Shown one piece after another: positions 785 to 14,966 of a DNA stretch of 64,000 bases. Positions within the stretch are counted from its first letter, which is position 1, and the number at the start of each line of letters is the position of its first letter. The notes beneath the pieces were generated by a model that did not search any database, was not told where the DNA came from, and saw only the letters and a program-made list of their open reading frames with translations. Source of the stretch: Escherichia phage arall; sequence record MN850584.1; one strand, written 5' to 3'. The position numbers and the translations under genes are program-made.

Positions 785-1457
785 ATTTTTGAGCCTCCTC
801 ATAAGAGATAAAAGTTTTACCATTGCGAAGATCCTCCAGTGATTGTTTATATTGTTCCCAGTTTACACCAATCCCCTGTTCTTTCTCTTCTTTTGACAGA
901 TTCGCAAAAGGTAAAGGATTATCTCCAAACACATCGTCAGGATGGATAAACGCCATAATTCGAATAGGACATGGTACACCGAGAATGCCTCGGTTCAAAC
1001 CTGCCAGTGGAACGCGCTGAATCCACTCTGCATCTTCATATCCATAACCGTGGGTGTATGAGCGGAAATAGCCAGCTTTCTCAATAACTGCACGGGAATA
1101 CATACCAAACTGGCACATACCTAGTTCCCAAATAACCACCTCCCCTTCAATACCTTTTACTTTATCTTTAAAGTATTCAGGCATACCAAAGAAATCCCAA
1201 CCATTTTCCTTTGCCTGTTTTACAAAATATGTTTCCCACCCTGGAACAACAGGATAGCAATCATCATCAAAAATAAACCAGTAGTCATACCCTTCATCAT
1301 AAAACTTTTTCATCAGTTCATTACGGGCATATGCAACACCTTTTCGTTCACGATCATACTGTACAACAAAAGTAGCATTAGGATCAGTCACAAGATAATC
1401 TTTAAGAGGACGCTTACCTACAGTAATAACACCAACACCAATTTTTGTATTTTCCAA
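771..1457 (-). CDS. GT-A fold glycosyltransferase-like protein
   Basis: 228 aa ORF; FIFDDDC (DxD) and YGYEDAEW motifs typical of GT-A enzymes; TTG start preceded by AAGGAG. Confidence 0.55.
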   Translation of the reverse strand: MENTKIGVGVITVGKRPLKDYLVTDPNATFVVQYDRERKGVAYARNELMKKFYDEGYDYWFIFDDDCYPVVPGWETYFVKQAKENGWDFFGMPEYFKDKVKGIEGEVVIWELGMCQFGMYSRAVIEKAGYFRSYTHGYGYEDAEWIQRVPLAGLNRGILGVPCPIRIMAFIHPDDVFGDNPLPFANLSKEEKEQGIGVNWEQYKQSLEDLRNGKTFISYEEAQKYGKS

Positions 1458-1466
1458 AATAACTCC

Positions 1467-2030
1467 TTAAATAATTTTATTCATGTCTTGACAATGTAAA
1501 AGGTGTGAAACAGCTTTTCTAGGATCATCATTACCTAAACGGTAGGTGTGAAATAAATATAACCCACGTAATAAACCTAGCCTTTTGTTGTTAGCATGTA
1601 ATGCTTTAGAGAAAATTATATCAAACTGTATTGATCTTTCCTCAAAAGGAATTTCATTCCACAGACTCTTACGAAAGAGAAGAAAGAATCCTGCTAAGAT
1701 AGCATCTGTAGGTACTTCCTCTATTGAGTTTCCCCATTCTAGATGTGCTCTTTTTGCAATCTCAATGTGGTGTAATATATTCGGATCTTCACTTCTTTCA
1801 TTATTAAATAATTGATATGTTGATCCCAATCTGTTACAAGATGCACCAAGAACATCAAAATCAGGATTTGAACGGACAATTGATTCCAGCCAAGCAGGTT
1901 GTTCTGGAAGAAGAAACATTGTATCAATGTCTCTTAGGCAAATCCAACTATCTTCTGGTAAGACACTTATTGTGTCATTGATACCTTTTCCAATATCTCC
2001 AGAAAGATAGGGAGTTATGTGAAATATCAT
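1467..2030 (-). CDS. Putative glycosyltransferase (GT-A-like)
   Basis: 187 aa ORF with CLRDID DxD-like motif; third consecutive glycosyltransferase-like gene. Confidence 0.4.
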   Translation of the reverse strand: MIFHITPYLSGDIGKGINDTISVLPEDSWICLRDIDTMFLLPEQPAWLESIVRSNPDFDVLGASCNRLGSTYQLFNNERSEDPNILHHIEIAKRAHLEWGNSIEEVPTDAILAGFFLLFRKSLWNEIPFEERSIQFDIIFSKALHANNKRLGLLRGLYLFHTYRLGNDDPRKAVSHLLHCQDMNKII

Positions 2031-2087
2031 ACTCCCTCCGTATTATTACTTTAGCATTTTTAGACTAAAAAGTCCAAATGGTTTTAC

Positions 2088-2282
2088 CTATTGATTACGT
2101 TTTGCGAGTTCCATTTGGATAGCTAAACTGTGATCTCGTGCTTCCATATACTCTTTATATGTTTCATTAAGATGATCACGACAAACATCACGCAGTTTAA
2201 TCAGTTTATCTGTAGGGATACCACTAAGATCATCCCAAGATTTTACAACTTCACCAGTATCATTGATCCCAATGGTTTTCAT
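2088..2282 (-). CDS. Hypothetical protein
   Basis: 64 aa ORF co-oriented in minus-strand block. Confidence 0.4.
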   Translation of the reverse strand: MKTIGINDTGEVVKSWDDLSGIPTDKLIKLRDVCRDHLNETYKEYMEARDHSLAIQMELAKRNQ

Positions 2283-2490
2283 CTACAACCTCCTTAATTG
2301 CTACAGCACAGTTTTTGCAGATACACTGCCCTTTACCTTTAGAAATCTGGATGTAAGGTTCATTTTCATTTTCGCCCTTACGTGAGTCATATATTACAGT
2401 ATTGAAGCACACAACGCAAATATTTTTTAAGATTGTATACTTATCAACTTTCTTTTTTGTTTTAAAGTTAACTTCAATAACATCAGCCAT
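2260..2490 (-). CDS. Small Cys-rich (zinc-ribbon-like) protein
   Basis: ATG at 2490 overlaps upstream stop (ATGA); CxxC...CxxC pattern (CVVC, CICKNC). Confidence 0.45.
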   Translation of the reverse strand: MADVIEVNFKTKKKVDKYTILKNICVVCFNTVIYDSRKGENENEPYIQISKGKGQCICKNCAVAIKEVVDENHWDQ

Positions 2491-2768
2491 CAGTGTAACA
2501 CTCCCAGTATGTTGTTTTGTGACATAACCATAGAACATTCAACATTATCGTGACTACGTGAAAAACGTTCCCAAACATCTTCATCGACTCGTAAAGCTAT
2601 ACAAGGATAGACGTTATCATTGATCATTTCAATTGAATAAACATCCACATTGTCTTCGTCTTCGATGAACATCATTGCAAACTGTTCTAAATGTTTCCTA
2701 ATGTAATGTACATCCTCTTCTGTAAGACCAATAACAAGATAACTTGCAACGATAACGCCATCTTTCAT
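2490..2768 (-). CDS. Hypothetical acidic protein
   Basis: 92 aa ORF in gene block. Confidence 0.5.
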   Translation of the reverse strand: MKDGVIVASYLVIGLTEEDVHYIRKHLEQFAMMFIEDEDNVDVYSIEMINDNVYPCIALRVDEDVWERFSRSHDNVECSMVMSQNNILGVLH

Positions 2769-2778
2769 CTATATCTCC

Positions 2779-3288
2779 TTAGCGATAGAATTGATGTTCT
2801 TTGTAGCGGTACACTAGAACCATATCTTTTTCCCAGTGTGCTCTTATTGTAGATTTTTTAAAGTATAATGCTCCTTTTGTAATATCTAATGCAATTCGTA
2901 ATTCTGGAAAATGGTTATCGAGATAAAGTAGACGTTCTGCTATAGCTTTAGCGTCTTTCCACTTATCGTGTTCCATAACGTTGAATGTCTTTGTGTAAGA
3001 GAATTGTCCTTTCTGAAACAAAACTTCTTTTATAGTATCAGGGAAATATGAATCTTTAGCCCTATTCAATACTACATTACCAACAGCAGACATACCGCGC
3101 TTTCCTTGATTACGACTTTCTGCATAGATTGCACAAGCTAATAGATTTTCTTTACTATCACGCTTTGTACACTTGTGAACTACTTTAGCAGTTTTTACGT
3201 TTGCAGCTTCGGCTTGCGCCACAACAGGTGTAAATGTAAAAGCAGTTAAGGATAGTAACGCAATTGCGACAAAGGTTTTTATTGACAA
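2779..3288 (-). CDS. Secreted SleB-like cell wall hydrolase
   Basis: N-terminal signal peptide (ALLSLTAFTFTPVVAQA); ACAIYAESRNQ...VGNVVLNRAKD...QKGQFS matches cell-wall hydrolase (Hydrolase_2/SleB) signature. Confidence 0.7.
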   Translation of the reverse strand: MSIKTFVAIALLSLTAFTFTPVVAQAEAANVKTAKVVHKCTKRDSKENLLACAIYAESRNQGKRGMSAVGNVVLNRAKDSYFPDTIKEVLFQKGQFSYTKTFNVMEHDKWKDAKAIAERLLYLDNHFPELRIALDITKGALYFKKSTIRAHWEKDMVLVYRYKEHQFYR

Positions 3289-3380
3289 ACTTGCCTCCTA
3301 TTTTGTTAAACGAACTTTTATTGTAACACAGAAGAGGCTATTTTGCAAGTGGAGGGGGACTATCCCCCTCTTACACTCTG

Positions 3381-3983
3381 TTAGATATTGTAAACCTTTG
3401 TATGAGTTACTACACCATCTTCTACAAAATCAATACGTTCTTGATCCGTGACTAGTGCAGACAACACTTTAAATTTAATTTTTACACGTTCAAAAGCTGG
3501 TTGACCATCTTTAAGATAATTATGTTCGGTTGTCACTGTCTTGTTTACAAAATCAACTTTTGCTTTACCGTTTTCGCGTAGGTGGAATGTTTTTCCTGCT
3601 TTATACACAATTTCAACATTACCTTCGAGAGTAATTCCTTCAAAAAGTTCACCCTCTTCTTCATTTTCTTCGCTTTTGAACAGACGACGAAACTCTTCCA
3701 TATCAAGATAAACAACATCTTCAGAATAACTATCAGTAAGGTATGTCTTACCATCCATTAACCCGAAATATTGCCAGATCGCAGAATAAACATCACTAGT
3801 TGATCCAAGGGTATCTCTGAGTTTAGTTCCACGGATTACTTCATAAACTTCAAAATTGAAACCAGACTGCAAAGCATCAAACAGCACATCACTAACTTCT
3901 AAAGCATAATCTTCATTGTTGTCAATATCTACAAGAAAATTGCCGCTACGAATAAGTTTTTGACCTTCTAAAGTAATACTCAT
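3381..3983 (-). CDS. Hypothetical protein
   Basis: 200 aa ORF in gene block. Confidence 0.55.
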   Translation of the reverse strand: MSITLEGQKLIRSGNFLVDIDNNEDYALEVSDVLFDALQSGFNFEVYEVIRGTKLRDTLGSTSDVYSAIWQYFGLMDGKTYLTDSYSEDVVYLDMEEFRRLFKSEENEEEGELFEGITLEGNVEIVYKAGKTFHLRENGKAKVDFVNKTVTTEHNYLKDGQPAFERVKIKFKVLSALVTDQERIDFVEDGVVTHTKVYNI

Positions 3984-4035
3984 TGTTTTCTCCTCTTCTA
4001 TTTAAAATATGCGCCCCGAAGGGCACTATGATTTA

Positions 4036-4632
4036 TTACTCGAACCAATCGTCGCCAGCGCCAAACGCTTTAACTACATCATAAATGTCAAGTCCAGCTT
4101 TACCTACACCATATGCTTTCAGTTTCCATTCACTATCTTCCCGCACCAGGGAGGCAACGTGGCAAATGGTATTACCTGCAAGTTCTGGAGCCAAGAAGTC
4201 AAAATCCAGCAGTTCAACGTTACGTTCATCATCGAAGATTTTAAGGAAACCTTCGGTAGCGTGACCAAGGCGTTTCTTACCCGTTTCGTCATCAATAGTA
4301 ATTACGAATGCAATTTCCTGTGCTTCAGCAGAGATATTATCCAGTGTAACATCAATCTGCTCCATTTGTCCTACACCGTCACGAACATCTTCACCTGCAA
4401 AAGTAGAACGTTCAGGGTCAAATTTCTGTGCGTAGCATACCAGGTGGCGAGGAGACAACAGTTCCGGCAGACCAGATGCATTGTGTCGGCAAATCAGAGC
4501 ACTAACATCCAGATCCAGTTTTTCGTTAGATTTCCAAGAGAATTCCAGACGAATGCGTTTCAGTGCTGGTGCAATCTTTTTCAGAGAAACTTTTTCGCTA
4601 GAACCTTTTTTCAGGGAAATTTTCTGAGTCAT
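4036..4632 (-). CDS. TerD-domain protein (tellurite resistance TerD/TerE/KlaB family)
   Basis: ISLKKG...VSLKK N-terminus, DLDVSA, AFVITIDD and SEWKLKAYGVGKAGL segments align by eye with E. coli TerD. Confidence 0.8.
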   Translation of the reverse strand: MTQKISLKKGSSEKVSLKKIAPALKRIRLEFSWKSNEKLDLDVSALICRHNASGLPELLSPRHLVCYAQKFDPERSTFAGEDVRDGVGQMEQIDVTLDNISAEAQEIAFVITIDDETGKKRLGHATEGFLKIFDDERNVELLDFDFLAPELAGNTICHVASLVREDSEWKLKAYGVGKAGLDIYDVVKAFGAGDDWFE

Positions 4633-4704
4633 AATTTATTATCTCCTTTGTTGTTAATTTACGTTATCTATTTTACTAATCTTTTCTACAAAGTCAAGCG
4701 TTTT

Positions 4705-5499
4705 TTACGCTTTTGCTCCGAATTTTTTAACCCACTCGCCAAACTCTTCGGATAGCAGTTTATCGTAAAGTTCTTCGTCAGACAAGGACAAATCTGCAAT
4801 ACCGATAAAGTCAACGTTATCGTATTCTTTTGCCAAGTCTTTCAGGAATTTAAAGTTTGCATTACCTACACCAACCATAAACCAGTAAACAGGAGTGTTG
4901 CGGTGTTTGTTCAGCAAACTACGTACTGCTGAAGTATCCATGTTCTCCCCGTCAGTTTGGAAGAAAATCATTGCAGGAGTACGATCAACTTGTGCATCAG
5001 TATCTACAACCTGTTCTACAACAGTACGTGTAACTTCTACAAGTTCTTTTTTACCAGTTAGTTTAGCAAGGAAACCCTTAGCCGGAACTTCTTCATACTC
5101 AACGACTTCGCGTGTAATATTTTTCATAGGTACACTACCGAAGTATGTATCATAGATCTCTTGCATTACTGGAGCATAAGCTGTACCACCATTGATGCAA
5201 ACGTTAGACATACAAGAGCCGACATAATCATCATATACATCAGCCGTAGCAGGAGGCAGTTCAAAAGAAGAACTATTGAAAGCCCACATGTCAATCTGTG
5301 CATTATCATCAAACTTCATACCAAACGGCAGCAGCTTACCTACAAAATCACTAACAGTGCCATCACGATACAGCTCACACATACTACCCGAAATATCTAA
5401 GGCGCTACCGACACGAAGAACAACATCGTTAATCTTTTTCTTACGCAGAGATACGGTAAGAGTTTCTTGACGTTTTTTAAGACTGATTTTATTGGACAT
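4705..5499 (-). CDS. vWA-domain protein (TerY/TerF-like)
   Basis: MIDAS-like LDISGSM motif; TerD-like ISLKK...VSLRKK leader; adjacent to TerD gene. Confidence 0.6.
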   Translation of the reverse strand: MSNKISLKKRQETLTVSLRKKKINDVVLRVGSALDISGSMCELYRDGTVSDFVGKLLPFGMKFDDNAQIDMWAFNSSSFELPPATADVYDDYVGSCMSNVCINGGTAYAPVMQEIYDTYFGSVPMKNITREVVEYEEVPAKGFLAKLTGKKELVEVTRTVVEQVVDTDAQVDRTPAMIFFQTDGENMDTSAVRSLLNKHRNTPVYWFMVGVGNANFKFLKDLAKEYDNVDFIGIADLSLSDEELYDKLLSEEFGEWVKKFGAKA

Positions 5500-5500
5500 A

Positions 5501-5770
5501 TTATTTCTCCTTTCTGAGTGTAATGTTAGTAACTTCTAAATCCACTTCTACCATTTCTGTATCATACGAAATACAGCTAAGTTGACCTCTTTGCGAACCG
5601 TTCAGACACATTGCTTGGTTTGTATTAACTTTAATAAACACTAAGTTTCTGAATGTATCTAAACCAGAATCTTGATAGGCAACATAATATACAAATGTAT
5701 CACCTGCGTCAAGTTCTCCAAAACATTTAGGTTCATCTGATTTGTCGTCTTTGATATTAAATTTAAGCAC
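5501..5770 (-). CDS. Hypothetical protein
   Basis: 89 aa ORF in block. Confidence 0.45.
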   Translation of the reverse strand: MLKFNIKDDKSDEPKCFGELDAGDTFVYYVAYQDSGLDTFRNLVFIKVNTNQAMCLNGSQRGQLSCISYDTEMVEVDLEVTNITLRKEK

Positions 5771-6326
5771 TGTCTTCTCCTTTACCTGCTCTCAAGCCTA
5801 AATAGAAAGCCTCTCTGGTGATCTTTTGCAACTCGTTTAAAGAGATAGTTACAACTAAATCATCTTCAATTTCTAGCTTTGAGTCTTCTTCTGTCTCAAT
5901 GCAAGTATTATGCACTTTGTGGTAAGGATTGTCAACACGTTTAAATTTATTATTTTCAGTGCTGAAGAAGCAATCTGGATCTTCTTCCCCATCACCCCAA
6001 CCCTGGTTAGGATCTTCTTCAGATCTTTCTGTTGGGATCTCGCCTGTAAAGTGCTCTTCTAATACCAGAGCAATCCCATCTCCAAGATCGGAAGAGAACA
6101 TCAAATTACAAACTTCTTCCCAAGGCATAGACCACTTAAATCTTTTACGATTGCCATGTTTATCTTCTTCGTTAGAGAAAACACTACCATAACTATCATA
6201 ATTCCCATACATCTCTTCGACAACCTTACCACCTTTCAAAAGAAATAGGTAGCAAGGAGAGCCATCGAAAGAGGTAGAAAGAGCAGCATTACCAGACTCT
6301 TTGCACAAGAAACTAAAACACCCCAT
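5763..6326 (-). CDS. Hypothetical acidic protein
   Basis: 187 aa ORF in block. Confidence 0.5.
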   Translation of the reverse strand: MGCFSFLCKESGNAALSTSFDGSPCYLFLLKGGKVVEEMYGNYDSYGSVFSNEEDKHGNRKRFKWSMPWEEVCNLMFSSDLGDGIALVLEEHFTGEIPTERSEEDPNQGWGDGEEDPDCFFSTENNKFKRVDNPYHKVHNTCIETEEDSKLEIEDDLVVTISLNELQKITREAFYLGLRAGKGEDSA

Positions 6327-6526
6327 TATACACCAGCCTTAAGATCAATTAAAGCCAAAGTTGTTTCAGAGTGTGTTTGCTCGTCTACAGGTGCAGTCAT
6401 ATGATAATACAAAAAATCTTCGGCATCATACCAATCTGATTCTTGACCTTGTTTCCAACCATCAATGAAAGCATCTTCCATAATGGTTTGCAATTCTTCA
6501 CGAGTTAAGTGAATATCTTTACTCAT
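6326..6526 (-). CDS. Hypothetical protein
   Basis: 66 aa ORF, start/stop overlap with neighbours. Confidence 0.4.
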   Translation of the reverse strand: MSKDIHLTREELQTIMEDAFIDGWKQGQESDWYDAEDFLYYHMTAPVDEQTHSETTLALIDLKAGV

Positions 6527-6759
6527 TACACATTCTCCTCTTTTACCAATTCCATCGTTGAATTGTCAAAACCATCTTTAGAAGAATAGGTATAGACAGA
6601 ACGTAGTTCTCGCAGGACAGTGAATACATTAGGATCATCTAACCAAGCATCCTGGAGGAGAACATAACGATCTTCATTGTCATACTGAACAGCAATCATA
6701 GAACCAGACAGTTTGTAAATTTTAATATTCATAATATATTTCTCCTTAAAGTAGACCAC
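6526..6759 (-). CDS. Hypothetical protein
   Basis: 77 aa ORF in block. Confidence 0.4.
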   Translation of the reverse strand: MVYFKEKYIMNIKIYKLSGSMIAVQYDNEDRYVLLQDAWLDDPNVFTVLRELRSVYTYSSKDGFDNSTMELVKEENV

Positions 6760-7849
6760 GTTTAACAGTTTGAATCATACCATCTTCAAGAGATTGCACT
6801 TCTTGAATGTAATCAATACGAGCAGCACGGGCTTCAGTGTTGATTCGGTTAGTTTCTTCCAACATTTTAACTAAGTTTTCTTGATCACGACGCAATGTTT
6901 CAATATCCAATACTTGACGATTAGCAAGTTGTGTAGCTTCAATCTGGTTTTGTGCAGCCAGATCACTACCCATTGCAATAGCAGCATTAAATTCATTCAG
7001 TACGTTGTTCTGTGTATCGGCTGCTTTCTTCTGGCGTAGACTTTCAATATACATAGAAAAGTTTGCAGAGTAAGCAGGAATAACATTATTCACAATATTA
7101 CGGGCTGATCGCATCAAACTTGCAGATACTTTCTGCATACTTTGTACACGTGGCCCCATCTGAACACATAGTAAGCGTAGGGCTTTCAGGTCTGCAATAC
7201 GAATTTCAAGCAGATCCATAGTATCACGAGTACGTTGACGCTCTTCTACCTCATTTTCAGGTAGTGTATTAAGGCGAATTTCTTCTTTTTCATAAGTAGC
7301 TGTTAGAAGCTCTATATCCCTGTTTAAGCTAAGGGCATATTTTGCAATAGCCTCTTCTAAACGTTGCAGATATCGTAAAGAATCTTCTTCTTTTTTCAAG
7401 TCTGTTTGGAGTGTCTTTACCAAACCTTCAATACGGTTATTGATGGTGTCAAATTCTCCAAACAAATCTTCTTTCATACCTAAAACTTTCTTAACTAGTT
7501 TACCTAAACCTTTAGATTGTTTAATAGAGTTAGGATCAAGTTGCTTTGCTTGCTTAATAAGTGCAGTTAAACGTTCACTCATTTCATCTCCCTGAGATGA
7601 ACGCTGGTGTTTAAGCACTTCAGCATTAAGGTTACGAAGAGTAAGTCCTGCATCAGCACCAACCTGTTCAATCTCTTCACGAGACATTGGAGGCAGCATT
7701 TGTACAGGGCGTGCAACAGCAGGGGCATATACAGGGCTTGCATCCATAGCACTTGGAGCAAACAAAGACTTACTTTTTTCTGTTGTTGCCGTGAATACAC
7801 TCATTTCAGACGGTTTGCTTTTTACGGCACTGATAAAAGGACTGGACAT
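6746..7849 (-). CDS. TelA/KlaA-like toxic-anion-resistance protein (tentative)
   Basis: 367 aa, strongly coiled-coil, size and context match TelA, which pairs with TerD-like KlaB in kilA-type operons; assignment is by context and composition. Confidence 0.4.
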   Translation of the reverse strand: MSSPFISAVKSKPSEMSVFTATTEKSKSLFAPSAMDASPVYAPAVARPVQMLPPMSREEIEQVGADAGLTLRNLNAEVLKHQRSSQGDEMSERLTALIKQAKQLDPNSIKQSKGLGKLVKKVLGMKEDLFGEFDTINNRIEGLVKTLQTDLKKEEDSLRYLQRLEEAIAKYALSLNRDIELLTATYEKEEIRLNTLPENEVEERQRTRDTMDLLEIRIADLKALRLLCVQMGPRVQSMQKVSASLMRSARNIVNNVIPAYSANFSMYIESLRQKKAADTQNNVLNEFNAAIAMGSDLAAQNQIEATQLANRQVLDIETLRRDQENLVKMLEETNRINTEARAARIDYIQEVQSLEDGMIQTVKRGLL

Positions 7850-7917
7850 TCAATTTCCTCCATATTCTTTAGTAGATGGTGATACCTCTGTACCACCATC
7901 ATAACACAAATTAAGTA

Positions 7918-8769
7918 TTAAACAAACATATCTAAATAATTTGTAGTAATAAATGCTCCATCTGCTTCCAGATTAACATAACCCGTGGTATTAGCAGTTA
8001 AGAAATCCAGATCGAAGGACTCTTTAACACCCCGTACCTCAACACGAGAGATATCGAATACAGGTAGTGTAACAGCCTCTTCGTGCAATACCGTACCTTT
8101 GTAGGTTGCCTTAATGATAAACTTGATATTACCTGTTCCAGCATCATATAAAACACTTTCAAACCCTTTGAGAGTATATTTATCACCAGAAGTGAAGTGC
8201 AAAGTTGCTTTGTTTACAGTACGTTTCTTACGAGGAGTTCCTTTCACACATTTATGATCACTACGTTTTTTGTATTTAGGAATGAATACAAACGATACAC
8301 TCTCAAGAAAGGTATCAACATCAAGGATTTTAATATCCTCTGTTGCAGCAAATTTTGAAGTCGTTGCATCAAAATGCTTTTCCCTGCGATCATACATAAA
8401 GATATCAAACCGATCTTCTAAATCAAACAAATTATGTATTTTAATTTCAGAATGCTTGCGCATTGCAGCAACCTTGAACTCTTCAAAACGTGGGTGTTCT
8501 ACAAGTTCTTCAAGTTTTACACCAAAGATAGTATATTGCTTCGAAGTCTTTTCTGGTGTTGGCATTACAGAAGCATAGTCCCCGATTGCGCTCTTAAAGC
8601 AAAATTGTTCTTGACCTGTATTTTTACCAACGAATTTACAGTATTCGTCATCGTGCATACTTTCCTTGGTAGTACCAACAAACTCAAAACCATCTTTATT
8701 CTTCTCAAGGATTTCTTGATTAAAGATCCAACCTTCCAGGCGATATACTTTACCAACTTCTAGTTTCAT
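7918..8769 (-). CDS. Hypothetical protein
   Basis: 283 aa ORF in block. Confidence 0.55.
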   Translation of the reverse strand: MKLEVGKVYRLEGWIFNQEILEKNKDGFEFVGTTKESMHDDEYCKFVGKNTGQEQFCFKSAIGDYASVMPTPEKTSKQYTIFGVKLEELVEHPRFEEFKVAAMRKHSEIKIHNLFDLEDRFDIFMYDRREKHFDATTSKFAATEDIKILDVDTFLESVSFVFIPKYKKRSDHKCVKGTPRKKRTVNKATLHFTSGDKYTLKGFESVLYDAGTGNIKFIIKATYKGTVLHEEAVTLPVFDISRVEVRGVKESFDLDFLTANTTGYVNLEADGAFITTNYLDMFV

Positions 8770-8804
8770 CTGTTTCTCCTTCTTATTTAATCTGTATTAA
8801 ATTA

Positions 8805-9395
8805 TTAACGACGACGTGAGCTACTAAAACTACGTTTCGACGAAGAATAACTTTTCGAAGACTTACTATAAGAGCTAATAGGGCTTGAGTAAGACTTACG
8901 AGCAGAGTAATCACTATTCACTTTTGTTGTTGACGGGCGTGAATACGTTTGTACACTTTGCTGCTTAATTGTGTTTTGTTTAGTGGTTGTATATGTATTT
9001 CCTTGTTTATCATAAAAACTATGCTTTTGTGTTGTATATGCTTTACTGTTAGTTGTAGGAGCAGCGTTGTTATTAATAATTGTTGTGCTGCTACCACCAT
9101 CTCTATAACCGCCACCGCCACTATTACCACTCAACATATGACCAAGAAGCATACCTGTAGCAAACTCACCTACACCAGACGAACCACTGCCGCCTCCTTG
9201 CACAACAACTGTTGAAGGTTGTGCAGGTGCTGCTTGAACAACTTGAGGTGCAGGCTGGTTTACATATTGTTCATCTACCATCTGATTTGGTGTTTGTTGG
9301 TAACGTTGATTTTGTACATTTTCAGAATCATCACAACCTACCAGCAATGCACTACCTAAAACAACTGCAACAATAAAAGATTTAATGTTTTTCAT
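8805..9395 (-). CDS. Lipoprotein with Gly/Ser/Tyr-rich low-complexity region
   Basis: ATG at 9395; signal peptide plus lipobox (LLVGC); glycine-zipper and S/T/Y-rich tail. Confidence 0.55.
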   Translation of the reverse strand: MKNIKSFIVAVVLGSALLVGCDDSENVQNQRYQQTPNQMVDEQYVNQPAPQVVQAAPAQPSTVVVQGGGSGSSGVGEFATGMLLGHMLSGNSGGGGYRDGGSSTTIINNNAAPTTNSKAYTTQKHSFYDKQGNTYTTTKQNTIKQQSVQTYSRPSTTKVNSDYSARKSYSSPISSYSKSSKSYSSSKRSFSSSRRR

Positions 9396-9588
9396 TTGTA
9401 ACCCTCTCATTTAAAGTCTCAACACAATTTTTAAAATCCCTAGAGAAACAATACATCTGTTCTCCGTTCCTGTTGATAGTAATTGTATGGTTATCAATAT
9501 ATGTTGTCAAGATAAAAATCAAACAAAACAACCCTAGAGCAAAACAAATATTTTCAAACAGAATCCAAAGAACACGTAAAACCACCAT
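9382..9588 (-). CDS. Small putative membrane protein
   Basis: 68 aa ORF with hydrophobic N-terminus; overlaps start of downstream gene. Confidence 0.3.
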   Translation of the reverse strand: MVVLRVLWILFENICFALGLFCLIFILTTYIDNHTITINRNGEQMYCFSRDFKNCVETLNERVTNEKH

Positions 9589-9628
9589 CAGATCACCTCA
9601 ACAAAGCCCCCCGAAGGGGCTTAATGAA

Positions 9629-10606
9629 TTAAGCAACAGTCTGGTCTTCTTTTTCAGGGAAGATTAAACTTGCAAGAACACCCAGCCCAAGAGTACCTAA
9701 CACAATATACATACTGATCGTCGGGTCAATGTGTGCTGGCAGGAAACTCATTTTTGCGTGCAGAGTTTCTGCAAACGGATGATACATCAGTTTTACACCA
9801 ACAAATACCAGGACTACGATAACTGCTTTCTCCAGATGAACCAAATACTTCAGTGCAACACTAAGAACAAAGAACAGAGCACGTAAACCTAAGATTGCAC
9901 AGAGCATCGAAGAGAACACCAGCAGAGGTTCTTGTGTCACTGCAATTACTGCTGGAACAGAGTCTACTGCAAAGATTACGTCAACCATTTCCATTACAAA
10001 CACACAAACCAGAGCCGGAGTTGCTACACGAACACCATTTTTTATTGTGAAGAACTTCTCACCATTCATCTGATCAGATACAGGGAACAGCTTACGAACA
10101 ATGCGAGTAGCCCAGTGTTTAGAGTAATCAACTTCTGCATCATCATCCCCAGCGAATACCATTTTAGCCGCACAGAAAAGGATGACAGCACCGAAGAAGA
10201 TATTAACATACCAGCCCAAACTCAACAAGTAAGTACCTACTGCTACAAACACACCTCGGAAGACAATCGCACCTGCAATACCCCAAAGTAGAATTTTGTG
10301 CTGCAAGTGTGTGCTTTTAATACCAAAACTTGCGAAGACTGCCACAAATACTACTAAGTTATCTACAGAAAGAGATTTCTCCAACACATACCCACTCAAG
10401 AACAAGCTCGCAAAATCAGCACCGTGTTGGAAGTATACAAAACCATAGTAGGCTAATGATACCCCAATCCAGAAAATTGACCAGCCAATTGCAGATTTAA
10501 ATGAAATTTCTTTGTTTTCTCTGTGTCCAAAGAAGTCAATACAAATCGACAAGACTAAAATACCCACTAAAACAACCACATCAATAATTGGGAAACCCAG
10601 TTGCAT
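9629..10606 (-). CDS. TerC-family integral membrane protein
   Basis: Multi-pass membrane protein with LSVDNLVVF TerC signature. Confidence 0.8.
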   Translation of the reverse strand: MQLGFPIIDVVVLVGILVLSICIDFFGHRENKEISFKSAIGWSIFWIGVSLAYYGFVYFQHGADFASLFLSGYVLEKSLSVDNLVVFVAVFASFGIKSTHLQHKILLWGIAGAIVFRGVFVAVGTYLLSLGWYVNIFFGAVILFCAAKMVFAGDDDAEVDYSKHWATRIVRKLFPVSDQMNGEKFFTIKNGVRVATPALVCVFVMEMVDVIFAVDSVPAVIAVTQEPLLVFSSMLCAILGLRALFFVLSVALKYLVHLEKAVIVVLVFVGVKLMYHPFAETLHAKMSFLPAHIDPTISMYIVLGTLGLGVLASLIFPEKEDQTVA

Positions 10607-10683
10607 TCTTTTCTCCTCTTTAATGCGGAGGACAATCCTCCGCTCTATGTCTTATACTATAAACTGTTTTTAAAGAAAGTCAA

Positions 10684-10932
10684 CTAGTTCAGTTCTGTAA
10701 TTTTAAGTTTATCTTCTTTGTTAATGATAGGGAAAGCTACAGCATCACCTACGTCATCAATAAAGCAAATAGCAAGACCACCTTCCACTTTGCTAATCTG
10801 ACCATTAAAGGCGTGATACGGGGCAGGAACTTGATCTCCATCTTCAAGGAGAATAGCCTCGTAAACCTTGCCGATAGTACAATCACGAGTGTTTCTAAAT
10901 TTTTCAAGCACTTCAACATTTACTTTACGCAT
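10684..10932 (-). CDS. Hypothetical protein
   Basis: 82 aa ORF in block. Confidence 0.45.
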   Translation of the reverse strand: MRKVNVEVLEKFRNTRDCTIGKVYEAILLEDGDQVPAPYHAFNGQISKVEGGLAICFIDDVGDAVAFPIINKEDKLKITELN

Positions 10933-10946
10933 ATAAAAATCCTCTC

Positions 10947-11153
10947 TTATTTGTTAGATTGAAAGATACCACGGAGTACCGCAAGAATGAACGTCACACA
11001 GACTACACTCCAAAACGTTACAGGAACATGATGCCAGTCTAAGCCGATAATGTCAATCATATAGTTGTATGCTAAAAGCAGTAGCCAACTAGGGATTAAC
11101 ACAATCAAAAACACAACAATAAAACAACCTAATACTGCTAAAACACCTGCCAT
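10947..11153 (-). CDS. Small membrane protein
   Basis: 68 aa, two hydrophobic segments. Confidence 0.45.
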   Translation of the reverse strand: MAGVLAVLGCFIVVFLIVLIPSWLLLLAYNYMIDIIGLDWHHVPVTFWSVVCVTFILAVLRGIFQSNK

Positions 11154-11162
11154 ACTTTCTCC

Positions 11163-11879
11163 TTATTTCAGTTTGTAAACAATTACATTTAAACCTTTGT
11201 TTACTAGAGTTTCTTCGATCATAAGTTTTACAATATTCCAAGAACCTCCAGCCAAACCACAACCAAGCATTGGTAAACCTACAATTTTACCGCCTGAAGA
11301 TACAACATCGTCTCCCATACTATCTAACGCATTGTAGATAGCTTCATAATTCAGGTCACGCTTACCTTCCTCACGACGACTATAACCATATTGTCCATAT
11401 AAATTATAAATTGTCAAATTGTTTTCTGTATACTTAGTAAACGTACCTAATTTTTTATAATCACCACGTTTAGTGGCACAATCTGCTTTAAACGCACCAG
11501 GCCACTTGCTTTTAATTTTTGGTGCAATACCACTACCCATAGTGCAAAAACAGTTACAGCAGTGTGCTATAGCGTCTATATCGCCTCTCTCGGCTGCTGC
11601 TAAAAGATCACCGTATACCTCAATGATACCTGCTAGATAACTTGTTACAATTTCATCTTCCCAGTACATTTGCTCTACACCACCGATCAGTGCAAAGTTT
11701 TGTGTAAGGCGATCATCAATATAGTTAAGACCTGAAACATACACAGCATATTCATCCTGTGCTGTAATACCTTGTACACGAATTCTTAAGACACCATCTT
11801 TATCTGTTGCTACACGCCCAAAATCTTTTTCTGTAATATTGGTGATAGGATCTCCGAAAGTCATTACTTTATTAGACAT
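11163..11879 (-). CDS. Macro-domain protein (putative ADP-ribose binding/hydrolase)
   Basis: ATG at 11879 overlapping upstream stop; GDIDAIAHCCNC...GSGIA...VGLPMLGCGLAGG follows macro-domain motif order. Confidence 0.5.
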   Translation of the reverse strand: MSNKVMTFGDPITNITEKDFGRVATDKDGVLRIRVQGITAQDEYAVYVSGLNYIDDRLTQNFALIGGVEQMYWEDEIVTSYLAGIIEVYGDLLAAAERGDIDAIAHCCNCFCTMGSGIAPKIKSKWPGAFKADCATKRGDYKKLGTFTKYTENNLTIYNLYGQYGYSRREEGKRDLNYEAIYNALDSMGDDVVSSGGKIVGLPMLGCGLAGGSWNIVKLMIEETLVNKGLNVIVYKLK

Positions 11880-12729
11880 AATAATCCCCTTTAACATTAG
11901 ATTTGTTGATAATGTTGCTTTCAAAAAATTGACGTAGGAAATCAAAGTTCTCTTTATATTTTTCAATGTTATTGTAGCCTTCTGCAAGGCAACCAAAGAA
12001 CAGTTGTTCTACATAATACAAAGGAAGCTGTGAAAGTGCAATTTTAAAATCAACTTCGCTTTGACTCATTAGATACTTAATAGGACGAACCAAACATTTA
12101 GCATCAGTTTCTTGCTTAATCATTTTAATAAAAGCTGCCAGGTTATTGATATAGTTGAAGTTAAGTGCAGCTTCGGTATTGGCTTCTGTACCTTCATACT
12201 TTGCAAAGTACAGGAAAAACGTATCGTTTTCAACACCTTCTTTGTCTAAAATTTCAATAAGTTTTTCTTCGTGCGTTCCTGTAATATTAACATCATCAAT
12301 GAAAATCAGAGTTTTATTACCCCAGAAATCACGATTGATAGAGAAAGTGTCACCATCGATCAAAGCCTTACGATCTTCTTTGCTAAGAAATCCATAATCA
12401 TTGATATAGCTCACTTTACGATGAACGATATCCCACTCCACTGCTTTACCTCCTTTGATAGAGATTAGGTAGTTGAGGTGATCTACAAAATGTTCAGATA
12501 ACACTGTAGCTGCATTTTTCACATAGTTATATGGAGATGGAATAACAACAAAACTTTCATTTACCAGTCGTTCTTCATACTTGGAAAAGAAACTTTCAGC
12601 CAGAATGCGTCCCATTCTTTTTGCTGCTTGGTTACTACCAAACTTTAGTTTGGAATAATCTGCAATGTTAAATTTTGCTTCCTTCAGGTTAGTAAAAGTA
12701 TTAGCAAAATGTTGAATTTGATTACGCAT
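11872..12729 (-). CDS. Type I phosphoribosyltransferase-fold protein
   Basis: KTLIFIDDVNITGTHEE matches the PRPP-binding loop of type I PRTases; unusual N- and C-terminal extensions. Confidence 0.55.
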   Translation of the reverse strand: MRNQIQHFANTFTNLKEAKFNIADYSKLKFGSNQAAKRMGRILAESFFSKYEERLVNESFVVIPSPYNYVKNAATVLSEHFVDHLNYLISIKGGKAVEWDIVHRKVSYINDYGFLSKEDRKALIDGDTFSINRDFWGNKTLIFIDDVNITGTHEEKLIEILDKEGVENDTFFLYFAKYEGTEANTEAALNFNYINNLAAFIKMIKQETDAKCLVRPIKYLMSQSEVDFKIALSQLPLYYVEQLFFGCLAEGYNNIEKYKENFDFLRQFFESNIINKSNVKGDYYV

Positions 12730-13378
12730 TAATAAGTTCCTCTTTTTTAAGTTTAGCCAACAAGTCTTCTGGATTAATAATATGACAGAACTTCATCCCT
12801 ATGTCAACAGCTTTTCCATCATAAATCAAACTATCCCCAACGTGTAAAATCTCCTCTGGTGCGAGATCAAACGTTACCATTTCATCAAAAGAGAGTTTAA
12901 AAAACCTAGGATCTGGTTTACACAAGCAAAACTCATCAGAAAAATGCATAAAGTCAAATGGTAATTTTGTCAAGCCAGAATATACAGCTAAGAAACTACC
13001 AGGTACAAAATTGGTATTGCTTTTAATACTCAAAGAATAGGTTGAACTTAGCTCTTCCAACTTCTTGCAAAGTTCAGGGTTTAATATTGGAGGATGTTTT
13101 ATAAACATTGCTAAACAGTCTCTTTTTAACCCATCTACTTTATCAAGATCAATGTTCAAATGAGCAGAAAGTGTTTCCCAAGCATTTCTAGATGTTCCAC
13201 AAATGCCTTTTTCTGCTCTTAAATCCAGGAGAGTTTTTACTTCTTTATATACGGTAGCTGCTTCTACCTCAGAACAAGAGGCATACTCGGCAATAACCTT
13301 GTTGCGTTCTTCTGCATACAAAGGATTAGCAGTAATAAGAGTATTCCATACATCAAAAGAAATATGCTTAACAGTCAT
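12722..13378 (-). CDS. HAD-superfamily hydrolase-like protein
   Basis: ISFDVWNTL (motif I-like), KPDP (motif III), HVGDSLIYDGKA (motif IV); ATG at 13378; overlaps downstream gene. Confidence 0.55.
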   Translation of the reverse strand: MTVKHISFDVWNTLITANPLYAEERNKVIAEYASCSEVEAATVYKEVKTLLDLRAEKGICGTSRNAWETLSAHLNIDLDKVDGLKRDCLAMFIKHPPILNPELCKKLEELSSTYSLSIKSNTNFVPGSFLAVYSGLTKLPFDFMHFSDEFCLCKPDPRFFKLSFDEMVTFDLAPEEILHVGDSLIYDGKAVDIGMKFCHIINPEDLLAKLKKEELINA

Positions 13379-13547
13379 TTTTAATCCTCCGTCCAAAAGA
13401 ATATCATCTGCTTAATTTTATTGATCTCTTGATGTAGTAACTTTCCAGCATGTGATTGATCTTTAATATTGACAGCAAGAATTTCAAGCTCCGTTAGTTT
13501 TTCTTGGATAGCTTTATATTCATCATCTGTAAGCATTTTCTTCCCCT

Positions 13548-13751
13548 TTAGAATGGTAATCTTTGTATGTCACTTATCCCCACACCAAGAAGTCTAGCAA
13601 TATCCTTATCTAAAAGCAACTCTTTTTGTTCTAAAATGTTAATCAGATCTCCTAATACTTCTTTAATGTCACGATCATTTTTAGCAACGTGACCACCTGC
13701 GGTATCAACTTTATCTTTAAAAACAAAATAATGATCCATAATACCCTCCAT
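13548..13751 (-). CDS. Hypothetical protein
   Basis: 67 aa ORF. Confidence 0.4.
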   Translation of the reverse strand: MEGIMDHYFVFKDKVDTAGGHVAKNDRDIKEVLGDLINILEQKELLLDKDIARLLGVGISDIQRLPF

Positions 13752-13785
13752 ATAAATAAAGGAGGCTTTCGCCTCCTTTTATCAC

Positions 13786-14946: not shown

Positions 14947-14966
14947 AGTTTTCTCCTCTATTTAAT

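What the first reader, a model, noticed from the sequence alone, without database searches (positions are those of the whole stretch)
4036..10606. Phage-borne tellurite-resistance-like module (TerD, vWA/TerY-like, TelA-like, TerC)
A virulent-phage gene block encodes a clear TerD-domain protein, a vWA protein with a TerD-like leader, a long coiled-coil TelA-like protein and a TerC membrane protein, with a lipoprotein between. Ter/Tel modules are best known from bacterial chromosomes and plasmids, where they confer tellurite, colicin and phage resistance. In a lytic phage they could modulate host envelope stress or superinfection exclusion.
Basis: partly seen in the sequence, partly recalled or inferred. 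Interest (0 to 1): 0.6.

Follow-up and report, generated by a model that had tools for sequence, protein, structure and literature searches.

The report
Phage-borne Ter stress module, already known
This stretch of a phi92-like E. coli phage really does carry TerD, a TerF-type vWA protein, TelA and TerC, but the cluster has been annotated and discussed in this phage group for over a decade, so it is a correct yet ordinary finding whose role in infection is still untested.

Summary
All four proteins match their Pfam families strongly (E 5e-28 to 1e-38), at exactly the stated coordinates and all on the minus strand. The window is a Justusliebigvirus (98-99% identical to VEcB and phi92). The phi92 record already calls gp172 a stress protein, gp178 tellurite resistance and gp182 a membrane-bound tellurium resistance protein. 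Published papers describe the same TerC/TerD/TerF-vWA/TelA set in many virulent phages and propose superinfection exclusion.

Corrections and additions:
- The vWA protein is TerF-type, not TerY-type.
- The functional unit probably extends upstream to a HAD-PRTase_3 gene pair (11872-13378). That pair recurs next to Ter genes in unrelated phages and parallels the PRTase/HAD genes upstream of bacterial terZABCDE.
- The intervening ORFs are lineage-specific passengers.
- The phage TerC keeps all five acidic residues required for Mn2+ export by E. coli Alx, and the vWA MIDAS site is intact.
- The TerD Ca2+ loop has lost acidic residues.
- TerB, TerZ, TerA and TerE are absent.
- The Ter genes are under strong purifying selection (dN/dS 0-0.09).

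Best reading: a trimmed Ter hub transcribed from host-type promoters that alters inner-membrane and metal physiology of the infected cell, most likely to exclude rival phages and colicins. The gene identities are secure; the function is inferred.

The parts
4011..4026 (-). Terminator-like GC hairpin just after the terD stop codon; likely 3' end of the block
   Evidence: GTGCCCTTCGGGGCGC followed by an A/T-rich tail; sequence read. Consensus scan only.
4036..4632 (-). TerD-domain protein (198 aa; phi92 gp172 orthologue)
   Evidence: PF02342 E 5e-28. Matches solved TerD structures 2KXT and 3IBZ at E 9e-15 and 3e-13. The DLD motif is kept, but the acidic Ca2+ loop is shortened and DD is replaced by QM. 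13 synonymous and 0 nonsynonymous differences against phi92.
4670..4697 (-). Sigma-70-like promoter candidate upstream of terD (TTGACT-N16-TAAAAT)
   Evidence: Consensus match only; promoter-like sites in the region are not enriched over shuffles (38 found against 33.9 +/- 6.3).
4705..5499 (-). Standalone TerF-type vWA protein (264 aa; gp173 orthologue) with an intact MIDAS site
   Evidence: PF10138 E 1e-38. D35-x-S37-G-S39, G104-G-T106 and T182-D183-G184 are invariant in three phage lineages. dN/dS 0.03.
5501..6732 (-). Four small ORFs (gp174-gp177 orthologues) lying between vWA and TelA; lineage-specific and not Ter-specific
   Evidence: No Pfam hits. Conserved in phAPEC8 but absent from distant phage Ter clusters. 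gp175 homologues elsewhere have no Ter neighbours.
6746..7849 (-). TelA-family protein (367 aa; gp178 orthologue), all-alpha with long helices and no TM segment
   Evidence: PF05816 E 8e-34. phrog_5890 'tellurite resistance' E 8e-137. AF2 model is all-helical but low confidence (pLDDT 56). No hydrophobic segment. dN/dS 0.02.
7918..8769 (-). 283-aa ORF of unknown function (gp179 orthologue), poorly conserved
   Evidence: No Pfam or NCBIfam hit. Only 41% identity over 71 aa to phAPEC8.
8805..9395 (-). Predicted inner-membrane lipoprotein (lipobox LVGC, Asp at +2 and +3), low-complexity Q/S/G-rich body
   Evidence: Sequence read directly. Signal peptide annotated in phi92 gp180. 35% identical homologue in phAPEC8. 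Inner-membrane retention inferred from the E. coli Asp+2 rule.
9382..9588 (-). 68-aa single-pass membrane protein (gp181 orthologue)
   Evidence: One strong hydrophobic segment. 49% identical in phAPEC8.
9629..10606 (-). TerC/Alx-family integral membrane protein (325 aa; gp182 orthologue)
   Evidence: PF03741 E 1e-38. TIGR03718 323 bits, above cutoff. 8-9 TM segments. Alx residues E86, D92, E213, D216 and D222 are all invariant in the alignment. 48% identical to plasmid TerC, including pRBL16.
10625..10683 (-). Sigma-70-like promoter (TTGACT-N16-TATAGT, 10683-10656) followed by an 8-bp GC hairpin (10643-10625) in the terC leader
   Evidence: The -35 box and the hairpin are conserved in phAPEC8, with one compensatory A-T to G-C change. 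The phAPEC8 record annotates a 'putative host dependent promoter' at the same place. No riboswitch was found.
11163..11879 (-). Macro-domain protein (gp185 orthologue) lying between the HAD-PRTase pair and terC; link to the Ter module uncertain
   Evidence: PF01661 E 3e-7. PADLOC DarG E 1.6e-13. NCBIfam DarG 49 bits, far below its cutoff of 250.
11872..12729 (-). PRTase_3 (ComF-like phosphoribosyltransferase, 285 aa); probable small-molecule arm of the Ter system
   Evidence: PF15610 E 1e-41. PRPP loop IFIDDVNITGT read directly. Always adjacent to the HAD gene. Next to TerC/TerD/vWA-TerF genes in independent contigs L007 and L010. dN/dS 0.03.
12722..13378 (-). HAD-fold hydrolase (218 aa) overlapping the PRTase start; motif I is DxWxT rather than DxDxT
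   Evidence: PF00702 26.1 bits, just under its cutoff of 26.4. HAD motifs I-IV are invariant in 8 phage lineages, with W at the D+2 position.

Best explanation
The block is the conserved Ter 'hub' of Stephanstirmvirinae phages (phi92 gp172-gp182). It comprises a TerC/Alx-type metal-transporting inner-membrane protein, a cytosolic TerD-domain protein, a standalone TerF-type vWA (MIDAS) protein and a TelA coiled-coil protein. It most probably works together with the HAD-PRTase_3 pair just upstream, which would make a nucleoside-like small molecule.

Shown here: the family identities, intact transport and MIDAS residues, strong purifying selection, synteny across two phage genera, and recurrence of the same gene set in unrelated phages.

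Inferred: the genes are transcribed by host RNA polymerase from sigma-70-like promoters early in infection. The products then assemble at the inner membrane and change its metal and ion physiology. This would reproduce in the infected cell the phenotypes that bacterial terC/terD confer, namely inhibition of other phages and resistance to pore-forming colicins and toxic ions. The phage would thereby protect its 'virocell' from competitors and envelope insults until lysis. Tellurite resistance itself would be a side effect, not the selected function.
For: Identity:
- Pfam, NCBIfam and PHROG matches.
- TerD matches solved TerD structures.

Functional integrity:
- All five acidic transmembrane residues needed for Mn2+ export by E. 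coli Alx (PMC10197570) are invariant in phage TerC.
- MIDAS residues are invariant.
- The PRPP loop and HAD motifs are conserved.

Selection:
- Against phi92, synonymous/nonsynonymous differences are TerD 13/0, vWA 9/1, TelA 15/1, TerC 16.7/5.3 and PRTase 18/2, giving dN/dS of 0-0.09.

Conservation:
- The whole HAD-PRT-macro-TerC...TelA...vWA...TerD order is kept in phAPEC8, with Ter proteins 66-81% identical.
- TelA is present in 244 phage records and PRTase_3 in 156.
- TerC/TerD/vWA-TerF lie next to HAD-PRTase_3 in independent metagenomic phage contigs.

Bacterial parallel:
- The plasmid pRBL16 locus reads PRTase...HAD-TerZ-TerA-TerB-TerC-TerD-TerE.
- terC plus terD is the minimal functional pair there (PMC8779313).
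- terC, terD and terZ insertions abolish phage inhibition and colicin resistance, and a K. pneumoniae terC deletion lowers Te, Zn, Mn and phage resistance (PMC12054061).

Expression:
- The promoter-like site and leader hairpin upstream of terC are conserved in phAPEC8, and the phAPEC8 record independently annotates a promoter at that position.
- Ter genes of another phage were reported as early-expressed (bioRxiv 10.1101/2025.10.29.685362).

Published hypothesis:
- The same superinfection-exclusion idea is published for phage Ter systems (PMC7824862).
Against: - No experiment on any phage Ter gene was found; papers on this genus say the function is unknown (PMC11162368).
- TerB, TerZ, TerA and TerE are absent, although terZ insertions abolish phage inhibition in the plasmid system.
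- The TerD acidic Ca2+ loop has a 2-residue deletion and QM in place of DD, so Ca2+ binding may be altered.
- No PADLOC defence model matches any Ter protein.
- Promoter-like sites are not enriched over shuffled sequence.
- HAD-PRTase_3 also occurs with no detectable Ter gene in the 6-10 kb of flank held on each side, in CcrColossus, XaC1, Rhizobium phage RHph_TM61 and contig L008.
- The phage HAD is unrelated in sequence to the pRBL16 HAD.
Confidence: 0.5

Rival explanations
1. Metal-homeostasis auxiliary genes. The phage TerC acts mainly as a Mn2+/Zn2+ exporter or as a metalation chaperone for exported proteins, as Alx, MeeF and MeeY do. TerD, vWA and TelA would be its cytosolic regulators. 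The module would tune metal pools or metalate phage or host envelope enzymes for the benefit of replication, with no role in excluding competitors.
For: - Phage TerC falls in the TerC/Alx subfamily above the curated cutoff.
- It keeps every acidic residue required for Alx Mn2+ export (PMC10197570).
- TerC proteins metalate exoenzymes during secretion (PMC10550928 abstract).
- K. pneumoniae terC contributes to Zn and Mn resistance.
- The phage encodes metal-dependent enzymes nearby (NrdD/NrdG) and a signal-peptide-bearing endolysin.
Against: - This does not explain why TelA, the vWA protein and the HAD-PRTase pair travel with TerC in several phage lineages.
- The yybP-ykoY Mn2+ riboswitch that controls alx and other Mn exporters is absent.
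- The host already has Alx and MntP.
Confidence: 0.25
2. Host-takeover or lysis-timing device. TerC plus TerD without TerZ/TerA is growth-inhibitory in E. coli. The trimmed phage set may therefore deliberately perturb membrane energetics or ion balance, to arrest host growth or to set the time of lysis. The nearby membrane proteins (lipoprotein, gp181, gp184) and the endolysin would take part.
For: - terCD or terCE alone give tiny colonies unless terA or terZ is added (PMC8779313), and the phage lacks terA and terZ.
- The block ends about 750 bases from the endolysin gene (2779-3288).
- It contains three small membrane-targeted proteins.
Against: - The small membrane ORFs are poorly conserved and absent from distant phage Ter clusters.
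- No holin or spanin signature was identified in the block.
- The toxicity data come from a 48%-identical plasmid TerC and a roughly 30%-identical TerD.
Confidence: 0.12
3. The HAD-PRTase_3(-macro) genes are a separate nucleotide-metabolism or counter-defence unit that merely sits beside the Ter genes. On this view the Ter module is only the four genes named by the first reader.
For: - HAD-PRTase_3 is found with no detectable Ter gene in the 6-10 kb of flank held on each side, in CcrColossus, XaC1, RHph_TM61 and L008.
- There it often sits near nucleotide or RNA-repair genes such as NMN adenylyltransferase/Nudix, adenylosuccinate synthetase and RNA ligase.
- Pseudomonas and Erwinia phages appear in the TelA hit list but not among the listed organism names for PRTase_3.
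- A promoter-like site and a hairpin separate the two blocks.
- The macro protein resembles DarG.
Against: - The two sets are adjacent in Justusliebigvirus, in Phapecoctavirus and in two unrelated metagenomic phage contigs.
- Bacterial ter loci also carry PRTase and HAD genes immediately upstream.
- The published Ter-system description lists PRTases and HAD enzymes as components (PMC7824862).
Confidence: 0.35
4. Bona fide tellurite resistance is the selected function.
For: The family names, and the fact that terC+terD suffice for tellurite resistance in E. coli.
Against: - A lytic phage with a short infection cycle gains little from tellurite resistance.
- Published authors judge it unlikely for the same four-gene set (PMC9796965).
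- Tellurite is rare in the gut and sewage habitats of these phages.
Confidence: 0.03

Closest known systems
Escherichia phage phi92 gp172-gp182 (and gp185-gp187), and the same block in about 54 Justusliebigvirus records
   Same: Same genes in the same order at 98-99% nucleotide identity. phi92 annotations already read 'putative stress protein', 'tellurite resistance' and 'putative membrane bound tellurium resistance protein'. RAST called gp172 and gp173 TerD and gp178 tellurite resistance in 2015 (PMC4690881).
   Different: Only point differences, almost all synonymous in the Ter genes. gp179 carries an 18-base indel relative to phi92.
Phapecoctavirus phAPEC8 gp048-gp066
   Same: Full synteny HAD-PRT-macro-TerC-...-TelA-...-vWA-...-TerD-endolysin. 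Ter proteins are 66-81% identical. The terC promoter and leader hairpin are conserved.
   Different: The intervening small ORFs differ or are only 35-50% identical, and the AAA ATPase is absent.
Ter clusters of other virulent phages (PhiPsa374 terC/terD/terF/telA; phiKp34; Caulobacter jumbo phages; Acinetobacter phage ME3)
   Same: The same four-family set, and in ME3 also PRTase plus HAD, as described in PMC9796965, PMC8386662 and PMC7824862.
   Different: Only about 20-25% TelA identity. Gene order and accessory genes differ. Some have two TerD paralogues or TerB.
Bacterial terZABCDEF determinants (IncHI2 R478; P. citronellolis pRBL16)
   Same: TerC is 48% identical and TerD about 30% identical. 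PRTase and HAD genes lie upstream of the ter genes. terC+terD is the functional core.
   Different: The phage has no TerB, TerZ, TerA or TerE. It adds TelA and a standalone TerF-type vWA. Its PRTase is the PRTase_3 family, and its HAD is unrelated in sequence and has DxW instead of DxD. It has no HpcH/CitE lyase or StiP protease.
E. coli Alx (Mn2+ exporter, TerC family)
   Same: Same NCBIfam subfamily, and all five essential acidic residues are conserved.
   Different: Only 35% identity. There is no yybP-ykoY/PRE riboswitch upstream; the phage leader has a simple hairpin instead.

Membership tests
TerD domain (PF02342) | Full-length profile match above the curated threshold | tested here: met
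   98.2 bits against a cutoff of 25.3, profile 3-178 of 187. phmmer hits to solved TerD structures 2KXT and 3IBZ.
TerD domain (PF02342) | Acidic Ca2+-binding loop (GDN-x-TG-x-GDGDDE-type signature; the exact motif is recalled from the K. pneumoniae TerD structure paper and was not re-read here) plus the DLD dyad | tested here: inconclusive
   The DLD dyad is kept. The loop reads G-E-D-V-R-D-(2-residue gap)-G-V-G-Q-M-E, against GDNRTGEGDGDDE in 2KXT. Three acidic positions are lost, and the same holds in phAPEC8. Actual Ca2+ binding is not testable here.
TerC/Alx family (PF03741, TIGR03718) | Profile match above curated thresholds and a multi-pass membrane topology | tested here: met
   133 bits against 27.8 and 322.9 bits against 246.4. 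Eight strong hydrophobic segments plus one weaker.
TerC/Alx family (PF03741, TIGR03718) | Acidic transmembrane residues required for Mn2+ export in Alx (E86, D92, E213, D216, D222) | tested here: met
   All five are invariant columns in the alignment of Alx, window TerC, pRBL16 TerC, phAPEC8 TerC and L007 TerC. Residue roles are from PMC10197570.
alx-type regulation | yybP-ykoY / PRE riboswitch in the leader | tested here: not met
   No Rfam match at E<=1 in 3000-15000, nor at gathering score in the whole window.
TelA (PF05816) | Full-length profile match; soluble all-helical protein | tested here: met
   117.6 bits against a cutoff of 30, profile 13-330 of 332. No TM segment. All-helical AF2 model, though low confidence.
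TerF (TerD domain + C-terminal vWA) | vWA-TerF-like domain with a MIDAS site | tested here: met
   PF10138 133.8 bits against 29.4. The DxSxS, GGT and TDG motifs are invariant.
TerF (TerD domain + C-terminal vWA) | N-terminal TerD domain fused to the vWA | tested here: not met
   No TerD Pfam hit on this protein. Only the first 20 residues resemble TerD (11/20 identical, E 0.087). It is a standalone TerF-type vWA.
TerY / TerY-P defence triad | TerY-type vWA with an adjacent PP2C phosphatase and Ser/Thr kinase | tested here: not met
   No PADLOC hit for the vWA protein. No phosphatase or kinase Pfam hit in any neighbour.
terZABCDEF tellurite/phage/colicin resistance determinant | terC + terD core pair | tested here: met
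   Both are present and intact. The definition of the core pair is from PMC8779313.
terZABCDEF tellurite/phage/colicin resistance determinant | TerB and the TerD paralogues TerZ, TerA and TerE | tested here: not met
   No TerB hit in any ORF from 771 to 15437. No second TerD-like sequence anywhere in the 64-kb window.
terZABCDEF tellurite/phage/colicin resistance determinant | Confers tellurite resistance, phage inhibition and colicin resistance | not testable with these tools
   Requires expression in E. coli with MIC, plating-efficiency and colicin assays.
Ter-linked nucleoside-like metabolite arm (PRTase + HAD) | A PRTase with a PRPP-binding loop, adjacent to a HAD-fold enzyme | tested here: met
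   PF15610 143.5 bits against 28.7. IFIDDVNITGT read directly. The HAD gene overlaps it in every lineage examined.
Ter-linked nucleoside-like metabolite arm (PRTase + HAD) | HAD enzyme is a canonical DxDxT phosphatase | tested here: not met
   Motif I is an invariant D-x-W-x-T in 8 phage lineages. The Pfam HAD score is just below its cutoff (26.1 against 26.4). The bacterial pRBL16 HAD has FDFDGTL.
Ter-linked nucleoside-like metabolite arm (PRTase + HAD) | Genomic linkage to Ter genes in independent lineages | tested here: inconclusive
   Linked in Justusliebigvirus, Phapecoctavirus, L007 and L010. Not linked within the 6-10 kb of flank held on each side in CcrColossus, XaC1, RHph_TM61 and L008.

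The most novel reading that the evidence does not exclude
The phage carries a self-contained small-molecule-gated membrane switch. The unusual DxW HAD enzyme and PRTase_3 would make a nucleoside-like metabolite during infection. A TerD with a remodelled (no longer Ca2+-type) loop would sense it, and in turn control a TerC-vWA-TelA complex that seals the inner membrane against incoming phage DNA and colicins, or that times lysis. This would be a virus-encoded version of the still-unsolved bacterial Ter signalling pathway. It would sit in a genetically tractable E. coli phage with only six core genes and no TerB/Z/A/E redundancy.
Probability: 0.15. Interest if true: 0.7.

Novelty: already known. 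Interest (0 to 1): 0.22.

Why it matters
What the Ter system really does has been an open question since the 1990s. The bacterial loci are large and full of paralogues.

The phage version is a naturally minimised set (TerC, one TerD, a TerF-type vWA, TelA, and a HAD-PRTase pair) under strong purifying selection in an easily grown E. coli phage. It could therefore serve as a simple model for working out the mechanism, and for testing whether virulent phages deploy a defence-like system to guard the infected cell.

There is also a practical angle. phi92-like phages are present in therapeutic cocktails (PMC4690881), where genes labelled 'resistance' attract regulatory attention.

None of this is new information about the sequence itself. 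The annotation and the hypothesis are already published.

Tried and rejected
- Riboswitch control of terC, as in alx: no Rfam hit at E<=1 in 3000-15000 or at gathering score in the whole window.
- TelA fold assignment: the AF2 model from a 19-sequence alignment was poor (pLDDT 56). Foldseek against the PDB returned only generic long coiled coils (chemoreceptor, BAR, YscO, IpaB), all with E > 0.02, so nothing is concluded from it. There was no sequence match of TelA or of the vWA protein to any PDB chain.
- Known defence-system models: PADLOC gave no hit for any Ter protein.
- Were the intervening ORFs Ter accessories, such as a hidden TerB? No Pfam or NCBIfam hits. They are not conserved in distant phage Ter clusters. 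gp175 homologues sit in unrelated contexts. Rejected.
- Is the 389-aa ORF between TerC and TerD in contig L007 a divergent TelA? BLASTP E 0.025 and no Pfam TelA hit. Not established.
- Is the phage HAD orthologous to the bacterial Ter-linked HAD? No similarity.
- The primary Ter comparative-genomics paper (PMC4104200) is not held, so its content is cited only through later papers.
- The afdb50 fold library was unavailable.
- A first script failed because the locus files were bundled differently from what I expected. It was rerun successfully.

Full report
**1. What is in the sequence**

All genes between 771 and about 30 kb of the window are on the minus strand. Within the finding's coordinates, four ORFs give strong full-length Pfam matches:
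- 4036-4632: TerD, E 5.1e-28.
- 4705-5499: vWA-TerF-like PF10138, E 1.2e-38.
- 6746-7849: TelA, E 7.9e-34.
- 9629-10606: TerC, E 1.3e-38.

TerC also passes NCBIfam's curated cutoff for the TerC/Alx metal-homeostasis subfamily (323 against 246 bits). TerD matches the two solved TerD structures by sequence (2KXT and 3IBZ).

Six further ORFs lie between the Ter genes and have no Pfam, NCBIfam or PADLOC assignment. One of them (8805-9395) starts MKNIKSFIVAVVLGSALLVGC-DD. That is a lipobox with Asp at +2, which by the established E. coli sorting rule predicts an inner-membrane lipoprotein; this last step is inference.

**2. Where the window comes from**

The 6.6-kb block is 98.9% identical to Escherichia phage VEcB and 98.1% identical to phi92. 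It is present at 95-99% identity in 54 records of the genus Justusliebigvirus (Stephanstirmvirinae), which are virulent E. coli myophages of about 147 kb.

The phi92 record already labels gp172 'putative stress protein', gp178 'tellurite resistance / toxic anion resistance' and gp182 'putative membrane bound tellurium resistance protein'. A 2015 analysis of the Intesti therapeutic cocktail listed phi92 gp172 and gp173 as TerD and gp178 as tellurite resistance (PMC4690881). A 2024 paper states that phi92 and a relative 'carry alx-like ter cluster genes... [quoted passage not shown]

**3. How widespread it is**

tblastn finds TelA relatives in 244 phage records. These include Escherichia, Pseudomonas PhiPsa374-like, Klebsiella, Caulobacter, Brevundimonas, Erwinia and Yersinia jumbo phages.

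The same four-family set has been reported for PhiPsa374 (PMC9796965), phiKp34 (PMC8386662) and jumbo phages. For the jumbo phages, Iyer and colleagues describe the Ter system's components (PRTase/HAD biosynthesis, TerB/TerD sensors, TerC membrane component, TelA and TerF-vWA sub-membrane components). They propose that phages use it against superinfecting phages (PMC7824862). The finding is therefore correct but already known.

**4. Extent of the module**

Upstream on the same strand lie a macro-domain gene (11163-11879), a PRTase_3 gene (11872-12729; PF15610, E 1e-41) and an overlapping HAD-fold gene (12722-13378).

The sister genus Phapecoctavirus (phAPEC8) keeps the whole order HAD-PRTase-macro-gp184-TerC-gp181-lipoprotein-...-TelA-...-gp175-gp174-vWA-...-TerD-endolysin. 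Its Ter proteins are 66-81% identical, the PRTase 65% and the HAD 50%.

The HAD-PRTase_3 pair is adjacent in every lineage examined: CcrColossus, XaC1, Rhizobium phage RHph_TM61 and three metagenomic contigs. In two of the three metagenomic contigs, whose PRTases are only about 47% identical to the window's, the pair sits within 2-8 kb of TerC, TerD or vWA-TerF genes (L007 and L010).

The experimentally studied bacterial locus on plasmid pRBL16 likewise has PRTase and HAD genes immediately upstream of terZ-terA-terB-terC-terD-terE. I therefore think the pair is the small-molecule arm of the same system.

The linkage is not universal, however. Four contexts have the pair with no detectable Ter gene in the 6-10 kb of flank held on each side. 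In addition, the phage HAD is not orthologous to the plasmid HAD.

The ORFs lying between the Ter genes are lineage-specific. None is found in the distant phage Ter clusters. The best-conserved one, gp175, belongs to a large phage family that elsewhere has no Ter neighbours.

**5. Are the proteins functional?**

Against phi92 the Ter genes show almost only synonymous change: TerD 13 synonymous / 0 nonsynonymous, vWA 9/1, TelA 15/1, TerC 16.7/5.3, PRTase 18/2. This gives dN/dS of 0-0.09, as low as or lower than most neighbouring genes.

Phage TerC has 8-9 hydrophobic segments. It conserves all five acidic transmembrane residues (E86, D92, E213, D216, D222) that are required for Mn2+ export by E. 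coli Alx (PMC10197570; alignment). It is 48% identical to plasmid TerC but only 35% identical to host Alx, so it is not a recent capture of the host alx gene.

The vWA protein keeps a complete MIDAS site (DxSxS, GGT, TDG).

TerD keeps the DLD dyad, but its acidic loop is shortened by two residues and reads ...GVGQME where bacterial TerD has ...GDGDDE. phAPEC8 shows the same pattern (GTGSME). Its Ca2+ binding may therefore differ; I could not test this.

The HAD enzyme has an invariant D-x-W-x-T in place of the phosphatase D-x-D-x-T in eight phage lineages. Calling it a phosphatase is therefore unsafe.

TerB, TerZ, TerA and TerE are absent. The vWA protein is TerF-type, not TerY-type. Its 'TerD-like leader' is only 11/20 identities at the N-terminus.

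**6. Transcription signals**

A TTGACT-N16-TATAGT site (10683-10656) followed by an 8-bp GC hairpin (10643-10625) precedes terC. The -35 box and the hairpin are conserved in phAPEC8, with one compensatory A-T to G-C change, and the phAPEC8 record independently annotates a host-dependent promoter at that position.

A second TTGACT-N16-TAAAAT site precedes terD. A terminator-like hairpin follows terD.

The scan as a whole is not enriched over shuffled sequence, so these sites are candidates only. No Rfam family, including the Mn2+ riboswitch that controls alx, is present.

**7. Most likely mechanism**

Shown: the family memberships, intact transport and MIDAS residues, purifying selection, and recurrent co-localisation.

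From the literature:
- terC+terD are the minimal functional pair for the plasmid system, and they are growth-inhibitory without terA or terZ (PMC8779313).
- Insertions in terC, terD or terZ abolish phage inhibition and colicin resistance.
- A K. pneumoniae terC deletion lowers Te, Zn, Mn and phage resistance (PMC12054061).
- TerC-family proteins export Mn2+ or metalate exported enzymes.

Inferred: the phage expresses the trimmed hub early from host-type promoters. The products assemble at the inner membrane and alter ion and metal flux and membrane state. The selected benefit would be protection of the infected cell from rival phages, colicins and envelope stress.

I put about 0.5 on this overall. 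The gene identities are above 0.95; the exclusion or protection function is about 0.45.

Rivals are pure metal homeostasis (0.25), host takeover or lysis timing through TerCD toxicity (0.12) and tellurite resistance as such (0.03). A separate question is whether the HAD-PRTase pair is really part of the system. I give 0.35 to the view that it is independent.

**8. Verdict**

However, the feature has been annotated since the phi92 genome was deposited and has been discussed repeatedly, so novelty is 'already known' and interest is low (0.22).

The residual value lies in the details assembled here:
- a six-gene minimal Ter system in an E. coli phage;
- conserved Alx transport residues;
- a remodelled TerD loop;
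- a DxW HAD enzyme.

Together these make the long-standing question of Ter function experimentally approachable.

Noticed in passing
[not shown]
   Followed up: partly
window 11163-11879 (-): The macro-domain protein matches the DarG antitoxin models (PADLOC E 1.6e-13; NCBIfam 49 bits, far below its cutoff of 250). It is a candidate phage counter-defence against DarT-type DNA ADP-ribosylation, or a part of the HAD-PRTase pathway. A macro gene also lies 8 kb from the HAD-PRTase pair in Xanthomonas phage XaC1.
   Followed up: partly
window 12722-13378 (-): The HAD-fold enzyme has an invariant D-x-W-x-T motif I (Trp in place of the general acid/base Asp) in eight distant phage lineages. Its chemistry may not be that of a simple phosphatase.
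   Followed up: partly
window 15434-18002 (-): The anaerobic ribonucleotide reductase gene nrdD is split at Pfam profile position 263 into 17136-18002 and 15434-16405. The roughly 730-base insert carries an I-HmuI-like HNH endonuclease ORF (16528-17037). Rfam found no group I intron. phi92 annotates a shorter gap with a 'spliced variant', and phage Paula has an uninterrupted gene.
   Followed up: partly
window 13786-14946 (-) and 30971-31732 (+): The AAA-type ATPase next to the HAD gene has a 47%-identical paralogue 17 kb away on the other strand. It is absent from the corresponding region of phAPEC8.
   Followed up: no
window 10625-10643: An 8-bp GC hairpin lies in the terC leader with no U-tract. 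It is conserved in phAPEC8 with a compensatory A-T to G-C change. It may be an mRNA 5' stabiliser or a regulatory element.
   Followed up: partly
window 771-2030 (-): Two of the four glycosyltransferase genes annotated in phi92 lie here. One gives a weak, sub-threshold hit to the TET-associated glycosyltransferase family PF20691 (23.3 against 27.5 bits), which hints at possible DNA sugar modification.
   Followed up: no
GenBank records MG065645.1 and MG065639.1 (hits H33, H77): Records named 'Campylobacter phage A145/A150' (host C. jejuni, about 146 kb) carry TelA and PRTase proteins 99.7-100% identical to these E. coli phages. They are probably mislabelled or contaminant phi92-like phages.
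   Followed up: no
window 8805-9395, 9382-9588, 10947-11153 (-): Three small envelope-targeted proteins are interspersed with the Ter genes: a lipoprotein with Asp at +2, a one-TM 68-aa protein and a two-TM 68-aa protein. They are conserved only within Stephanstirmvirinae at 35-60% identity.
   Followed up: partly
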